From an uncultured Anaerolineaceae bacterium (GTDB lineage Bacteria > Chloroflexota > Anaerolineae > Anaerolineales > E44-bin32): a stretch of DNA of 64,000 nt. The DNA lies in the NCBI GenBank assembly GCA_964528155.1, contig CAZGRL010000007.1, positions 8,613-72,612 of the forward strand, read 5' to 3'. How positions within the stretch are numbered: position 1 is the stretch's first letter; every line of letters starts with the position of its first letter. The notes under the pieces are model-generated. The model saw only the letters and a list, made by a program, of their open reading frames with translations. It made no database searches and was not told where the DNA came from. Position numbers and translations under genes: made by a program. Positions 26,385 to 48,928 of this stretch are shown here, piece by piece.

Positions 26385-26540
26385 GCCGCCTCAAGCATAC
26401 GATCCCCGCGTCTCATCGGACGCAAGTCGACCGGCAAGCACGCCTCTCAGAGCTATGGAGTGCTCGCCTGCATGCTGTGTCTCACCCCCACCCCCTGTTT
26501 CCCCCTCCCCCTGGCCCCCGCAACGAGGTGAGGCCAGAGT

Positions 26541-26592
26541 TGGGCGGAATGCATGGATGGGCGCGGTTGCGCCCATCCATGCATTCCGCCCA
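26541..26592. repeat. Long intergenic palindrome, perfect 24-bp stem, preceded by a C-rich tract (26485-26519)
   Basis: tgggcggaatgcatggatgggcgc-ggtt-gcgcccatccatgcattccgccca. Confidence 0.9.
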
Positions 26593-26696
26593 TAACCACC
26601 GCGGTCTAGGGTATGCGTTTTGCCTGAGTACAACGTGGCGGAGAGGGAGACAAACCATATGGGGGCTCGCCAGACCCCGCCGACTTTCCCTCGCCT

Positions 26697-45444: not shown

Positions 45445-45906
45445 ATGTCCGCTGATGCTGAAATCGAAACCTTCCTCCGCCATCACCTCGAGTCGATCTT
45501 CTCCAACGACGTCGCCGGCTATCACGCCACAACGGTCGATGATCTGAGCCTGTATGAATGGTACGTCACACCGCAGCGGATCGACGGCCTCCCGTTCCAC
45601 GATTTCATGATGACCGAGTCCGGACGGGCAGATACAGCCGGGATGGCGCTCGACCCACACCCCACGGGCGGCGCTCCGGAAGACAAAGCCCGAGTGCGCT
45701 TCGATCTGGCGAACTACCGCGAGCAGCGCTACGGCAATACGGTCATTTGTTCCTACACCATGTTGATCTCCAAGGGCACCGCATCTGGGGTCAAAGTCCA
45801 GAGCTACAATGAGAGCCGCGTCCTGGTGGAGATTAGCGGTGCCTGGAAAGTCGTTCACGTTCACAAATCCCCGAGCTGGAACGCACCCTATCAGCCGCCG
45901 GATTGA
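45445..45906 (+). CDS. NTF2/SnoaL-like protein (CaMKII-association-domain-like)
   Basis: HHLESIFSNDVAGYH, YGNTVICSYTMLI, NESRVL...WKVVHVHKS. Confidence 0.75.
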   Translation: MSADAEIETFLRHHLESIFSNDVAGYHATTVDDLSLYEWYVTPQRIDGLPFHDFMMTESGRADTAGMALDPHPTGGAPEDKARVRFDLANYREQRYGNTVICSYTMLISKGTASGVKVQSYNESRVLVEISGAWKVVHVHKSPSWNAPYQPPD

Positions 45907-46093
45907 TCCATCCTGTTGGATCCTGTCAGAAGTGCATTCCAGCTTGAGGCACCTCTCGTGTGGGGTACGGTAAGGCGCGCGCTCCGCCGATTGGCCCCTG
46001 GGGGTGCCTTCCCACTACTTGTCCACTATCAAGATGAGTCGTCACTTTGCAGCAATCAAGCGTCCTTTTTCCATATGAACCAAGGGGCAGATG

Positions 46094-46222
46094 CCCCCAC
46101 CCCCAGCCCCTCCCACGCCCGGCGCCTTGACCGACGGTAGGTGTCGCCTTTGGCGGGGGAGGGGGATATTCTCAGAAATGAGAACGCAGGCGGCTATGCC
46201 GCCTGCGTTCTCATTTCTGAGA
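46094..46222. repeat. Composite element: C-rich/G-rich hairpin followed by a perfect 25-bp palindrome (46170-46222)
   Basis: cccccacccccagcccctcccacgcc...ggcgggggagggg, then tctcagaaatgagaacgcaggcggc-tat-gccgcctgcgttctcatttctgaga. Confidence 0.88.
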
Positions 46223-46308
46223 GCCCATGGTGCGGGGGGCGGCAAGGCGAAGCAGTGCTTGAAGTATGGACACCCGAGATGACGCGCTTGCTTGCGGGCT
46301 GGACCCGC

Positions 46309-46337
46309 TTGACATCGATCGCCTTTACTGCTAACTT
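46309..46337 (+). promoter_or_regulatory. sigma70 promoter of the lys operon
   Basis: TTGACA (46309-14), 17 nt, TGn-extended TAACTT (46332-37). Confidence 0.75.
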
Positions 46338-46346
46338 ATGCCCAAT

Positions 46347-46406
46347 ATGGCAACATTCAATCAGCCGGTGACGAAGAAGTCGAAGGGGATCAACACGACG
46401 GAGTAG
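46347..46406 (+). CDS. Putative lysine attenuator leader peptide MATFNQPVTKKSKGINTTE
   Basis: 19 codons just after the promoter with AAG AAG TCG AAG; not in the ORF track. Confidence 0.7.
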   Translation: MATFNQPVTKKSKGINTTE

Positions 46407-46442
46407 TCCGGCCTGTAGTACTTGCCTGTAACCGAAACACAA

Positions 46443-46468
46443 AACCCCGCCGGACAACCGGCGGGGTT
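46443..46468 (+). terminator. Attenuator hairpin upstream of lysW
   Basis: aaccccgccgg-acaa-ccggcggggtt; the 5' arm can alternatively pair with gtccggc (46406-46412); U-tract on + is weak. Confidence 0.6.
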
Positions 46469-46507
46469 CCGCTTAAGGAAAAAGTACGACGGAGAGGAGA
46501 AGTGACG

Positions 46508-46678
46508 ATGGCGGAAGGATCGTGTGTGGAGTGCGGCGCTGGCATCCCCCTTCAGGACGACCTGATTCTCGGGGAAATTCTACCTTGCCCGGAGTGCGGC
46601 GCCGAGCTTGAGGTCACATCACTTGACCCGGTGCAGCTGTCCCTGGCGCCCGAGGTCGAAGAAGACTGGGGGGAGTGA
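46508..46678 (+). CDS. lysW: Amino-group carrier protein LysW
   Basis: Translated by hand: MAEGSCVECGAGIPLQDDLILGEILPCPECGAELEV...APEVEEDWGE; zinc ribbon and C-terminal EDWGE. Confidence 0.97.
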   Translation: MAEGSCVECGAGIPLQDDLILGEILPCPECGAELEVTSLDPVQLSLAPEVEEDWGE

Positions 46679-47556
46679 TGCGCCTGGCGATGATCGTCTC
46701 ACGCGTCCGGACCGAGGAGAAGCTCCTGCTGGAGGCCTTCCGCCGCGCCGGCGTGGAGCCCGAGCTCATCGCCGATGACGAGATCGTCTTCGACCTGACA
46801 GCCTTCGATTCCTCCTGGTCACAGTACGACGTCGTCCTGTCTCGCAGCCTAAGCGCCTCGCGCGGACTGTACACCACACGTGTCTTGAACACGTTCGGCG
46901 TCAGGACGATCAACAGCTACGAGACCTCGCCGATGTGCGCCGACAAGGTCCTGACAACAATCGCCCTGGCGGCAGCCGGGATCCCTCAACCCAAGGCGCG
47001 CCTTGCCTTCTATCCTGAATCGGCATTGCAGGCGATCGAAGCGCTCGGTTATCCCGCAGTCCTCAAGCCAGCCTTCGGATCCTGGGGCCGGCTCCTGGCG
47101 AAGGTCAATGATCGCGAGAGCGCCGAGGCGATTCTCGAGCACCGTCAGACGTTGGGCAACTTCATCCAACACATCTACTACGCCCAGGCCTACGTCGAGA
47201 AATCCCACAGCCGCGATATCCGGGCATTCGTCGTGGGTGACCGGACGGTTTGCACCATCTACCGCACCTCTTCGCATTGGATCACCAACACCGCCAGAGG
47301 CAGCACCGCCAGCGCCTGTCCGGTGACGCCAGGACTCGATGAGCTTTGCCGCCGCACGGCGACGGCGGTCGGCGGAGGAATTCTCGCCATCGACCTATTC
47401 GAGGTCAATGACGGGTTCGTCGTGAACGAGGTCAACCACACAATGGAATTCCGCAACAGTATCGAGCCCACCGGAGTCGACATCTCGGCAGAGGTTGCCT
47501 CTTATGTCCTCGATCGGGCATCCGAGGTGATGCAGCCCGCGGAAAGGTCGGCGTGA
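46678..47556 (+). CDS. lysX: LysX ATP-grasp ligase (alpha-aminoadipate-LysW ligase)
   Basis: GYPAVLKPAFGSWGRLLAK, RDIRAFVVG, HWITNTARG, VNEVNHTMEF; TGATG coupling to lysW. Confidence 0.93.
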   Translation: MRLAMIVSRVRTEEKLLLEAFRRAGVEPELIADDEIVFDLTAFDSSWSQYDVVLSRSLSASRGLYTTRVLNTFGVRTINSYETSPMCADKVLTTIALAAAGIPQPKARLAFYPESALQAIEALGYPAVLKPAFGSWGRLLAKVNDRESAEAILEHRQTLGNFIQHIYYAQAYVEKSHSRDIRAFVVGDRTVCTIYRTSSHWITNTARGSTASACPVTPGLDELCRRTATAVGGGILAIDLFEVNDGFVVNEVNHTMEFRNSIEPTGVDISAEVASYVLDRASEVMQPAERSA

Positions 47557-48590: not shown

Positions 48591-48636
48591 ATTCTGTCCG
48601 ATACCGGAAGAATTCAATGGAGTTGTCTTGAGACGA

Positions 48637-48768
48637 CCCCCGCCCCTCGATCCCCCTCCCCCGTCATTCGGCGGAGGTCACTCCGAACATGCCCTCAACG
48701 GGGGAGGGGGAAGATAACGCTTGGTTGGGTCATCGGGCAGCAGAGCTGCCCGATGACCCAACCAAGCG
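48637..48768. repeat. Composite element inside the lys operon: C-rich/G-rich hairpin plus a perfect 24-bp palindrome (48718-48768)
   Basis: tccccctcccccgt / acgggggaggggga 14-bp stem, then cgcttggttgggtcatcgggcagc-aga-gctgcccgatgacccaaccaagcg. Confidence 0.9.
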
Positions 48769-48928
48769 ACTACCTCACCGCATCGAGGTCGCGTGGATGA
48801 CGACGGACAGGAGGGTGAGGATGGAGCCATCTCCCTGCAAAGTCAGCTGACGGTGGCGAGCAGCCGCATGCGTCCAAGCAAGCGGCCTTGCCAGCCAATG
48901 GCAGGGGATCACCGTTAGGAGGCCCACG

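What the first reader, a model, noticed from the sequence alone, without database searches (positions are those of the whole stretch)
46309..46510. Lys-codon leader peptide attenuator upstream of lysW
Seen: promoter, then a near-leaderless 19-codon ORF with K-K-S-K (AAG AAG TCG AAG at 46374-46385) and no Arg codon, stop at 46404-06. gtccggc (46406-12) is complementary to gccggac (46449-55) in the 5' arm of an 11-bp hairpin. A ribosome stalled on the Lys codons would leave the antiterminator free; one reaching the stop would mask it. Established: this is classical attenuation logic, and a Lys-leader attenuator is described for the Thermus thermophilus lys cluster. I know of no description in Chloroflexota. 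Caveat: the U-tract on + is weak.
Basis: partly seen in the sequence, partly recalled or inferred. Interest (0 to 1): 0.72.

Follow-up and report, generated by a model that had tools for sequence, protein, structure and literature searches.

The report
Lysine leader-peptide attenuator before lysW
A 19-codon mini-gene with three lysine codons, followed by an RNA hairpin that can pair in two exclusive ways, sits in front of a lysine-synthesis operon of a Chloroflexota bacterium and most likely turns the operon up when lysine-charged tRNA runs short; the same uncatalogued device precedes lysW in dozens of related genomes.

Summary
Comparison with relatives supports the attenuator reading.

- **Close relatives.** Seven distinct relatives (LysX 77-86% identical) keep the promoter, an ATG 9 nt after the -10 box, the peptide core P-V-T-K-K-S-K and a stop codon at or near GTCCGGC. 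They also keep an invariant 9-bp G+C hairpin core.
- **Wider family.** A Lys-rich short ORF lies upstream of lysW in 49 of 128 Chloroflexota loci, against 6 on the antisense strand and 1 in shuffles. Many of these ORFs are followed by a canonical terminator, and many loci carry two such units in tandem.
- **Antiterminator.** The stop-adjacent strand co-varies with the terminator's 5' arm. This includes a G-C to C-G swap specific to the window's clade.
- **Homology.** Sequence profiles built with or without the window's clade find each other, and the clade-free profile gives a single hit in the window.
- **Databases.** Rfam has no matching family, and I found no description in the searchable literature.
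- **Open weakness.** The window clade has a conserved but poor U-tract (UUCCGCUU), so intrinsic termination itself is unproven.

Verdict: a real, conserved Lys leader-peptide attenuator. It is a new member of a known kind.

The parts
46309..46337 (+). Promoter: -35 TTGACA (46309-14), 17-nt spacer, TG (46329-30) plus -10 TAACTT (46332-37)
   Evidence: Sequence read. In 8 aligned clade leaders (A2) both boxes and the 17-nt spacing are kept while the spacer sequence varies. The consensus scan does not call it because the -10 matches 3 of 6. The transcription start is inferred, not mapped.
46347..46406 (+). Leader ORF of 19 codons plus TAG, encoding MATFNQPVTKKSKGINTTE. It starts 9 nt after the -10 box, so it is leaderless or nearly so and has no SD.
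   Evidence: All 8 clade leaders keep an ORF of 16-19 codons. The N-terminal M-A-x-x-x-x-P-V-T-K-K-S-K is kept with synonymous changes (GCA/GCG, TTC/TTT, CCG/CCC, TCG/TCC). The C-terminal part varies but the reading frame is kept.
46374..46385 (+). Regulatory codons AAG AAG TCG AAG (Lys-Lys-Ser-Lys)
   Evidence: These 12 nt are kept in 7 of 8 clade leaders, apart from a synonymous TCG-to-TCC change in L164 and L173. L168 has lost one AAG in frame. They align with the KKxKK runs of outgroup leaders.
46399..46410 (+). Possible weak anti-antiterminator: CGGA-GUAG-UCCG mini-hairpin with the stop codon in its loop
   Evidence: Predicted by RNAalifold on A2, present in 6 of 8 leaders. It is only 4 bp. 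The much longer Lys-codon:U-rich helix seen at this place in outgroup leaders by eye (not scored) is absent here. Inconclusive.
46406..46412 (+). Antiterminator 5' strand GTCCGGC. Its first base is the G of the TAG stop codon.
   Evidence: The window, L001, L086, L087, L089, L090, L092 and L093 share the same register, with the strand starting at the last base of the stop codon.
46443..46468 (+). Terminator-like hairpin AACCCCGCCGG-ACAA-CCGGCGGGGTT. Its 5' arm and loop (GCCGGAC, 46449-55) form the antiterminator 3' strand.
   Evidence: -22.8 kcal/mol. The 9-bp G+C core of the stem is invariant and the loop varies (ACAA, ACAG, ACCT, ACGA, ACGT) in 8 clade leaders; the two A-U pairs at the base become G-U in L166 and L173. 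It aligns with the canonical terminators of outgroup leaders.
46467..46478 (+). Weak, interrupted U-tract TTCCGCTTAAGG
   Evidence: The tail score is -3.07, against -5.0 to -6.1 in outgroup leaders. Only 2.8% of random 15-mers in the window score this low or lower. The clade keeps the pattern TTyCGCwTwARG, with CGC invariant.
46418..46487 (+). Possible outer helix GTACTT (46418-23) : AAGTAC (46482-87) that encloses the hairpin. It can form only in read-through RNA.
   Evidence: Present in the minimum-energy folds. By eye, the equivalent strands are GTGCCTGCC:GGCAGGCAC in L161 and TTGCCC:GGGCAA in L164, which are compensatory changes. Not tested statistically.
46491..46678 (+). SD GGAGAGGAG (46491-99) and lysW (ATG 46508 to TGA 46678), the first gene of lysW-lysX-lysY, followed after a 340-nt gap by lysZ-lysJ-lysK
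   Evidence: NCBIfam: TIGR01206 lysW 63.3 bits (cut-off 53.2); LysX 312 (275.6); [LysW]-aminoadipate kinase 307.8 (223); [LysW]-lysine hydrolase 409.9 (363).

Best explanation
This is a ribosome-mediated, leader-peptide transcription attenuator that senses lysyl-tRNA and controls the lysW-lysX-lysY(-lysZJK) lysine-biosynthesis operon.

**Proposed mechanism**
- Transcription starts a few bases before the ATG at 46347, so a ribosome can load on the near-leaderless leader ORF as soon as it emerges.
- When Lys-tRNA is plentiful, the ribosome runs to the TAG at 46404-06. There it covers GTCCGGC (46406-12), so the hairpin at 46443-68 forms behind RNA polymerase and transcription stops or is strongly reduced before lysW.
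- When Lys-tRNA is scarce, the ribosome stalls on AAG AAG TCG AAG (46374-85). Its front edge then ends about 5-10 nt short of GTCCGGC, which pairs with GCCGGAC (46449-55) as soon as that emerges. This holds the hairpin's 5' arm, and polymerase reads on into lysW.

**Shown here**
- All sequence parts are present.
- They are conserved in relatives.
- The antiterminator helix co-varies.
- The element is homologous to leaders that carry canonical terminators.
- The downstream genes are lysine-specific.

**Inferred, not shown**
- The transcription start.
- Translation of the leader ORF.
- Ribosome stalling on the Lys codons.
- That this hairpin, with its poor U-tract, actually terminates transcription.
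For: 1. Clade conservation. The 8 distinct leaders are the window plus L082, L161, L164, L166, L168, L170 and L173 (LysX 77-86% identical). They keep the promoter boxes, the ATG position, PVTKKSK, an ORF of 16-19 codons, and a stop abutting GTCCGGC (6 of 8) or 7 nt upstream of it (L082/L170, where TAG was lost and a TGA in a new frame replaces it). They also keep an invariant 9-bp G+C stem core with a variable loop.
2. Family level. 49 of 128 non-redundant lysW upstream regions carry a short ORF with at least 3 Lys in 5 codons on the sense strand, against 6 antisense and 1 shuffled. Thirty-two such units were paired with a terminator hairpin carrying a T-tract.
3. Antiterminator. In 19 of 34 units the stop region is complementary to the terminator's 5' arm or loop at p <= 0.05 against shuffles. 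The sequences differ between units: GTCCGGG/CCCGGAC, GTCTGGGCG/CGCCCAGAC, GCGTGGGC/GCCCACGC and a 16-bp case in L092. On alignment A3, 93.9% of cells pair against 83.0 +/- 1.7% in shuffles (0/500), sliding the partner drops pairing to 57% or less, and 4 of 7 pairs change on both sides. Pair 48-109 is G-C in 13 outgroup leaders and C-G in all 7 clade leaders.
4. Homology. The clade profile hits the first attenuator unit of L003, L087, L095, L089, L090 and L091 at E = 1e-4 to 1e-2. A profile of 13 outgroup units finds exactly one site in the 64-kb window on both strands, 46371-46468, E = 4.3e-4, collinear from the Lys codons to the hairpin.
5. Geometry. For nascent RNA ending at 46457, a ribosome on Lys3 makes the GUCCGGC:GCCGGAC helix the minimum-energy fold, and a ribosome on the stop masks it. 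The duplex is -15.5 and the hairpin -22.8 kcal/mol.
6. Gene identity. The operon is a LysW-type lysine cluster.
7. Independent hint that this operon is controlled by tRNA charging in the phylum: a T-box (89.9 bits, E = 2.4e-20) precedes lysW in a Ktedonobacterales genome.
Against: - The plus-strand tail UUCCGCUUAAGG is a poor U-tract. The consensus scan does not call a plus-strand terminator. The tail scores -3.07, against -5 to -6 in outgroup leaders.
- The weakness is conserved across the clade. G+C content does not explain it, since outgroup loci have similar G+C.
- The antiterminator is only 7 bp and leaves AACCCC of the 5' arm free as a toehold. At equilibrium the hairpin always wins, with P(terminator) = 0.92 under every ribosome mask, so the model depends on kinetics.
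- There is no convincing anti-antiterminator in the clade, only a 4-bp helix.
- There are only three Lys codons, and two in L168.
- The -10 hexamer is weak (3 of 6) and the transcription start is not mapped, so leaderless translation is an assumption.
- There are no expression data of any kind.
Confidence: 0.7

Rival explanations
1. The same Lys-codon uORF and the same two exclusive helices operate, but the read-out in this clade is not intrinsic termination. The hairpin would cause a pause or expose the C-rich spacer, and a factor such as Rho, NusG or NusA would complete termination. The logic would resemble the Salmonella mgtA/mgtL proline-codon leader.
For: The U-tract is weak and stays weak across the clade, while homologous outgroup leaders have TTTTTT. 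G+C content does not explain this. By my own count on the sequence, the 36-nt spacer 46413-48 is C-rich and G-poor (12 C, 5 G). Canonical terminators are not enriched over shuffles anywhere in the window.
Against: The spacer is short for a Rho loading site. A ribosome stalled upstream would not obviously hide it. The homologous outgroup elements are plain intrinsic terminators. Nothing here shows that Rho is used.
Confidence: 0.12
2. The element is a decayed relic. The clade inherited the attenuator but lost terminator function, so the hairpin is now only a 5' stabiliser or structural element and the operon is controlled elsewhere.
For: Compared with outgroup leaders, the clade has lost the U-tract, the U-rich anti-antiterminator strand and the second tandem unit.
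Against: Seven relatives at 77-86% LysX identity still keep the ATG, the Lys codons, the reading frame, a stop next to GTCCGGC and both antiterminator strands, while neighbouring spacer, loop and 3' flank sequences vary freely. In L082/L170 a lost TAG was replaced by a nearby TGA. The G-C to C-G swap preserves the helix. This pattern indicates purifying selection on the switch.
Confidence: 0.08
3. Translational attenuation: ribosome stalling in the Lys tract remodels the leader so that the lysW ribosome-binding site is freed. This is how the leaderless poly-cysteine short ORFs of mycobacteria work (bioRxiv 10.1101/834739).
For: The uORF is near-leaderless like the mycobacterial ones. In the window alone, the SD is more often unpaired when the antiterminator is forced (0.41 to 0.78).
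Against: Across the 8 clade leaders the change in SD accessibility has no consistent sign: 0.72 to 0.58, 0.41 to 0.42, 0.40 to 0.40, 0.64 to 0.52 and so on. No CUCC-type anti-SD sequence occurs in the leader. Outgroup homologues carry true terminators.
Confidence: 0.05
4. The element is not a uORF switch at all. It could be a minus-strand terminator, a protein operator overlapping +1 (for example the GAC-N6-GTC in GTGACGAAGAAGTCG), or a chance ORF next to a hairpin.
For: The scan calls the hairpin a terminator on the minus strand only. The Lys-codon block is conserved at the nucleotide level, and GACGAAGAAGTC is a weak palindrome.
Against: No minus-strand gene lies downstream, since lysW to lysK are all on the plus strand. 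The palindrome is absent from outgroup leaders, which share only the Lys codons. There is strong strand-specific enrichment of Lys uORFs and co-variation of the antiterminator. No riboswitch or T-box is present in the window.
Confidence: 0.03

Closest known systems
Lysine leader-peptide attenuator of the Thermus thermophilus major lys cluster (Tsubouchi et al. 2005, J Biol Chem; cited from my own knowledge, the paper is not in the searchable library)
   Same: It controls the same LysW/alpha-aminoadipate pathway and senses the same amino acid. It uses the same logic: a short ORF with adjacent Lys codons, then alternative stem-loops, one of which is a terminator.
   Different: It comes from a different phylum. 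As I recall, the Thermus leader precedes the homocitrate synthase gene, not lysW. Sequence relatedness could not be tested because the Thermus sequence was not on hand. The window version is near-leaderless and has a poor U-tract.
Classical attenuators of Proteobacteria (trp, his, leu, thr, ilv, pheA; Rfam Trp_leader, His_leader, Leu_leader, Thr_leader)
   Same: A short ORF carries a run of cognate codons. Ribosome position chooses between an antiterminator and a terminator. The stop codon lies close to the strand that decides the outcome.
   Different: No Rfam leader family matches the window. There are 3 Lys codons rather than longer runs. The 1:2 helix is weak or absent. There is no SD in front of the uORF. 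The U-tract is weak.
   Same: They are homologous by sequence profile in both directions. The order of parts is the same and the distance from Lys run to terminator is similar (100-120 nt; 107 in the window). The stop and antiterminator are in the same register.
   Different: Outgroup members have KKxKK, a long helix between the Lys codons and a U-rich strand, clean TTTTTT tails and often two units in tandem. Their promoter lies about 20-35 nt upstream of the uORF, often with an SD-like sequence.
Leaderless poly-cysteine short ORF attenuators of mycobacteria (Canestrari et al., bioRxiv 10.1101/834739)
   Same: A leaderless short ORF with cognate codons is the first cistron of a biosynthetic operon, and ribosome stalling is the sensor.
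   Different: Those act on translation by unmasking the downstream ribosome-binding site. That read-out is not supported here.
Lysine riboswitch (L-box, RF00168) and T-box (RF00230)
   Same: They are functional analogues: cis-acting RNA control of lysine genes by lysine or by tRNA charging. A T-box precedes lysW in a Ktedonobacterales genome.
   Different: Neither is present in the window. The window element needs a translating ribosome and has no ligand- or tRNA-binding fold.

Membership tests
Ribosome-mediated (leader-peptide) transcription attenuator | Short ORF in the 5' leader of an amino-acid biosynthesis operon | tested here: met
   A 19-codon ORF at 46347-46406 lies 101 nt upstream of lysW. 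The operon is identified as a LysW lysine cluster.
Ribosome-mediated (leader-peptide) transcription attenuator | Clustered codons for the cognate amino acid, conserved among relatives | tested here: met
   K-K-S-K is kept in 7 of 8 clade leaders, and K-S-K in L168. Lys-rich uORFs occur in 49/128 loci on the sense strand, against 6 antisense and 1 shuffled.
Ribosome-mediated (leader-peptide) transcription attenuator | Intrinsic terminator (G+C hairpin plus U-tract) between the uORF and the first gene | tested here: inconclusive
   The hairpin is strong (11 bp, -22.8 kcal/mol) and aligns with true terminators. The tail is UUCCGCUU, with score -3.07 against -5 to -6 in outgroup leaders, and the scan does not call a plus-strand terminator.
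Ribosome-mediated (leader-peptide) transcription attenuator | Antiterminator helix mutually exclusive with the terminator, supported by co-variation | tested here: met
   GTCCGGC pairs with GCCGGAC. 93.9% of cells pair against 83.0% in shuffles (0/500), and 4 of 7 pairs change on both sides, including the clade-specific G-C to C-G swap.
Ribosome-mediated (leader-peptide) transcription attenuator | Spacing such that a ribosome at the regulatory codons frees the antiterminator strand and a ribosome at the stop masks it | tested here: met
   Shown by masked folding of the nascent RNA. The 18 nt from the last AAG to TAG is kept in 6 of 8 leaders. The ribosome footprint size used is an assumption.
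Ribosome-mediated (leader-peptide) transcription attenuator | Anti-antiterminator (1:2) helix involving the regulatory codons | tested here: inconclusive
   Only a 4-bp CGGA/UCCG helix is found. The long helix seen by eye in outgroup leaders is missing here.
Ribosome-mediated (leader-peptide) transcription attenuator | Amino-acid-dependent premature termination in vivo or in vitro | not testable with these tools
   No transcriptome, Term-seq or reporter data are available.
   A profile of 13 outgroup units gives a single hit in the window, 46371-46468, E = 4.3e-4. The reverse search gives E = 1e-4 to 1e-2.
Thermus thermophilus lys leader | Sequence or structural homology to the Thermus leader | not tested
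Lysine riboswitch RF00168 / T-box RF00230 | Covariance-model match | tested here: not met
   There is no hit even at E <= 10 in 45900-46800.
ylbH leader RF00516 | Score at or above the gathering threshold of 50 bits | tested here: not met
   The score is 26.8 bits. The match rests on the hairpin and the SD only.
Leaderless short-ORF translational attenuators (mycobacterial Cys type) | Stalling-dependent unmasking of the downstream ribosome-binding site | tested here: not met
   SD accessibility does not change consistently between the two folds in 8 leaders.

The most novel reading that the evidence does not exclude
The window's clade has turned a canonical Lys attenuator into a variant with two unusual features. 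The sensing uORF is translated from a leaderless or nearly leaderless 5' end, so ribosome loading is tied to promoter escape. The 'terminator' has a conserved non-U tail (UUyCGCUU, whose invariant CGC can pair with GCG of the 3' arm). Together these would imply a termination or pausing read-out that needs a factor, or that works by a rule other than hairpin plus U-tract.
Probability: 0.2. Interest if true: 0.65.

Novelty: new member of a known kind. Interest (0 to 1): 0.5.

Why it matters
Leader-peptide attenuation is textbook biology for Proteobacteria. For lysine, as far as I know, it has been shown only in Thermus.

This work gives a concrete, testable regulatory element for the LysW lysine pathway in Chloroflexota. 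That phylum has almost no characterised gene regulation and few cultured members. The window's element belongs to a large family that Rfam does not hold, found in about 40% of the sampled lysW loci and often as tandem units.

The family could be added to RNA and uORF annotation resources, and it would improve operon and regulon prediction in metagenome-assembled genomes. The same operon appears to be controlled by a leader peptide in Anaerolineae and by a T-box in Ktedonobacteria, which offers a natural comparison of two tRNA-charge sensors. The weak-tailed variant in the window's clade is a useful case for asking what a terminator needs in this phylum.

Tried and rejected
- **Rfam.** A permissive scan of 45900-46800 gave only a sub-threshold ylbH-leader hit (26.8 of 50 bits), explained by the hairpin plus SD. 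Gathering-threshold scans of 40 related loci gave nothing relevant: only tRNA-Sec elsewhere and no hit at all.
- **RBS-sequestration model.** No consistent change in SD accessibility.
- **G+C pressure as the cause of the weak tail.** Outgroup loci have the same G+C.
- **Minus-strand terminator.** No minus-strand gene could use it.
- **Upstream antiterminator.** An alternative pairing (GCCGG...GGGG of the uORF with CCCCGCCGG) appeared in the folding of the window. It is not conserved in L161 or L164, so I dropped it.
- **Tail pairing.** By eye on the clade sequences, I tested pairing of the conserved tail CGCTTAAGG with CCTGTAACCG upstream. There was no compensation in relatives, so I dropped it.
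- **RNAalifold on the 8 clade leaders.** It recovers only the invariant hairpin and small helices, with a covariation term near 0, because the clade is too uniform. Co-variation had to come from the wider family.
- **Column-wise pair counting of the terminator on A3.** Not attempted, because MAFFT put clade and outgroup stems one column out of register.
- **Literature.** Ten full-text searches were run; the seven aimed at prior descriptions found no description of a Lys leader in Chloroflexota. The Thermus paper is not in the library.
- **Closer genomes.** GTDB representative genomes hold nothing closer than 63% LysX identity. Closer relatives came only from metagenome contigs.
Full report
**1. 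Observation**

- A perfect -35 box (TTGACA, 46309-14) is followed by a 17-nt spacer and TAACTT (46332-37), which is preceded by TG (46329-30).
- An ATG at 46347 opens a 19-codon ORF, MATFNQPVTKKSKGINTTE, that ends at TAG 46404-06. It has no Arg codon, and AAG AAG TCG AAG lies at 46374-85.
- GTCCGGC (46406-12) is the exact complement of GCCGGAC (46449-55). The latter forms the end of the 5' arm and the start of the loop of an 11-bp hairpin (46443-68, -22.8 kcal/mol).
- lysW starts at 46508, behind the SD GGAGAGGAG.

Three caveats come from the tools.
- The consensus scan does not call the promoter, because the -10 matches only 3 of 6.
- The scan calls the hairpin a terminator only on the minus strand.
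- A second in-frame ATG at 46338 overlaps the -10 region.

The downstream genes are a lysine-specific LysW cluster. Four of them score above NCBIfam's curated cut-offs: lysW, lysX, [LysW]-aminoadipate kinase and [LysW]-lysine hydrolase. lysY matches the argC equivalog above its cut-off. lysJ passes only the broad argD-subfamily model and falls short of the LysJ equivalog (423 of 700 bits).

**2. Close relatives**

GTDB representative genomes hold nothing closer than 63% LysX identity. Metagenome contigs and the protein collection gave a clade at 77-86% identity. This clade yielded seven distinct leaders besides the window: L082, L161, L164, L166, L168, L170 and L173. The alignment (A2) shows the pattern expected of a functional promoter plus switch.
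- Both promoter boxes and their 17-nt spacing are kept while the spacer varies.
- The ATG always lies 9 nt after the -10 box, with no room for an SD, so the uORF is leaderless or nearly so.
- M-A-x-x-x-x-P-V-T-K-K-S-K is kept, with several synonymous changes.
- The C-terminal codons vary freely, yet the frame stays open for 16-19 codons.
- TAG abuts GTCCGGC in six leaders. In L082 and L170 the TAG is lost and a TGA in another frame, 7 nt upstream, takes its place.
- L168 has lost one AAG by a clean 3-nt deletion.
- The 9-bp G+C core of the hairpin stem is invariant, the two basal A-U pairs become G-U in L166 and L173, and five different loops occur.

In L165 an IS481-type transposase gene replaces the usual upstream gene, but the promoter and leader are unchanged. 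The unit is therefore autonomous.

**3. Wider family**

I examined 160 loci fetched through LysX; lysW was located in 153 of them, nearly always directly upstream of lysX.
- Of 128 non-redundant upstream regions, 49 contain a short ORF with at least three Lys in five codons on the sense strand. The count is 6 on the antisense strand and 1 after shuffling.
- Typical peptides end in ...KKAKKTEPDR...SKKKQSKKPAARSG...KRAKKQxTSLPDWRSG or ...SKCSKSKKPSLACRDG.
- For 32 of these units my scan paired the uORF with a strong hairpin carrying a T-tract, and at least 20 loci carry two such units in tandem.
- The conserved peptide tails are explained by RNA. The last codons, or the bases just after the stop, are complementary to the 5' arm or loop of the following terminator, with different sequences in different lineages. 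This is significant against shuffles in 19 of 34 units.

**4. Homology and co-variation**

- A profile of the window's clade hits the first attenuator unit of L003, L087, L095, L089, L090 and L091 (E = 1e-4 to 1e-2).
- A profile built only from 13 outgroup units finds one site in the whole window, 46371-46468 (E = 4.3e-4). It is collinear from the Lys codons through TAG-TCCGG to the hairpin.
- On an alignment of 21 units (A3), the antiterminator helix is paired in 93.9% of cells, against 83.0 +/- 1.7% in shuffles (0/500). Pairing falls to 57% or less when the partner strand is slid. Four of seven pairs change on both sides.
- The seventh pair is G-C in 13 outgroup leaders and C-G in all seven clade leaders.

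**5. Mechanism**

I folded the nascent RNA up to 46457 with a ribosome footprint masked.
- A ribosome with the third Lys codon in its A site makes the antiterminator the minimum-energy fold.
- A ribosome on the stop codon masks GTCCGGC.
- At equilibrium the hairpin always wins (-22.8 against -15.5 kcal/mol). As in other attenuators, the decision must therefore be kinetic.

This fits classical attenuation logic. Low Lys-tRNA leads to a stall, then the antiterminator, then read-through into lysW. Sufficient Lys-tRNA takes the ribosome to the stop, the hairpin forms, and transcription terminates.

**6. What does not fit**

- The tail after the hairpin is UUCCGCUUAAGG. Its tail score (-3.07) is better than 97% of random sites in the window but far from the -5 to -6 of outgroup leaders.
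- The clade keeps this weak tail (TTyCGCwTwARG, with CGC invariant), and G+C content does not explain it.
- The clade has also lost the U-rich strand that, by eye, pairs with the Lys codons in outgroup leaders. Only a 4-bp CGGA/UCCG helix is left as a possible anti-antiterminator.
- Canonical terminators are not enriched over shuffles anywhere in the window.

Intrinsic termination at this hairpin therefore remains an inference. A factor-dependent read-out is the main rival.

A translational read-out, as in the mycobacterial leaderless Cys ORFs (bioRxiv 10.1101/834739), is not supported. SD accessibility does not change consistently between the two folds in the eight leaders.

**7. Known systems and novelty**

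- Rfam 15 has no family for this element.
- Ten full-text searches were run; none of those aimed at prior descriptions found a Lys leader peptide in Chloroflexota.
- A 2005 survey lists lysine as controlled at the RNA level by the L-box, not by attenuators (PMC1262725).
- The Thermus thermophilus Lys leader is the closest known system, but I can cite it only from memory.

The element is thus a new member, in a new phylum and before a new first gene, of a well-known kind. The near-leaderless uORF, the weak conserved tail and the tandem units in relatives are variations worth testing.

**8. Verdict**

Confidence in Lys-responsive, ribosome-mediated transcription attenuation is 0.70. The interest score is 0.5: a solid comparative finding with a clear experimental path, but not surprising in kind.

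Noticed in passing
L003, L005, L006, L008, L012-L014, L018, L029, L059, L066, L075, L086, L087, L089, L091, L093-L095, L110, L135, L143 (within 450 nt upstream of lysW): Two Lys-rich uORFs lie in tandem before lysW, in many cases each followed by its own terminator. The window's clade has only the first unit. Tandem attenuators could sharpen the response.
   Followed up: partly
L052, L067, L069, L074, L080, L027, L044, L065, L060, L070 (upstream of lysW): Leaders in Anaerolinea/Bellilinea-like and other Anaerolineae-type genomes encode mixed Lys/Arg runs (KRARR, PRSRRxPKR, KRxPRR). In most of these loci a terminator of the GAAGGCCTCTC...GAGAGGCCTTC type follows. LysZ of three tested loci (L067, L044, L060) passes the NCBIfam cut-off for the bifunctional aminoadipate/glutamate kinase (219-223 against 194). 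LysZ of the window, L003 and L001 does not (159, 154, 141). This hints at joint Lys and Arg control of a bifunctional pathway.
   Followed up: partly
L019:2423-2690 (+), Ktedonobacterales MAG DATGID010000106.1; probably also L104: A T-box leader (RF00230) lies directly upstream of lysW, at 89.9 bits (just under the gathering score of 93) and E = 2.4e-20. The specifier could be AAG (Lys) or, in the neighbouring register, CAA. This was not resolved.
   Followed up: partly
window 26484-26595, 46090-46222, 48640-48770; L166, L168 and L170 lysY-lysZ gaps: A composite intergenic repeat occurs at these sites. It consists of C-runs (CCCCCACCCCC...CCCCCTCCCCC, twice with a GGGGGAGGGGG partner) followed by a 20-25 bp perfect palindrome. 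The palindrome's sequence differs between copies and between relatives, but its arms stay perfectly complementary. One copy sits just upstream of the lys promoter and one splits lysY from lysZ. The function is unknown: a terminator or insulator, or a small mobile element.
   Followed up: partly
window 46418-46423 with 46482-46487: A possible outer helix (GTACTT:AAGTAC) encloses the hairpin. The equivalent strands are GTGCCTGCC:GGCAGGCAC in L161 and TTGCCC:GGGCAA in L164, which are compensatory changes. It lies past the termination point, so it could form only in read-through RNA.
   Followed up: no
window 46461-46472: The 3' arm plus the tail can form a mini-hairpin, GCGG-GGUU-CCGC. This may explain why CGC in the middle of the would-be U-tract is invariant in all 8 clade leaders.
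   Followed up: no
L165:1-882: An IS481-family transposase gene replaces the CaMKII_AD/SnoaL-like gene that normally lies upstream. The lys promoter and leader are identical to those of L164.
   Followed up: no
window 48591-48928: A 340-nt non-coding gap lies inside the lys cluster, between lysY and lysZ. L161 has a 124-codon ORF without a Pfam hit at this place, with no significant similarity to the window's gap (one weak 10-residue match, E = 5.2).
   Followed up: partly
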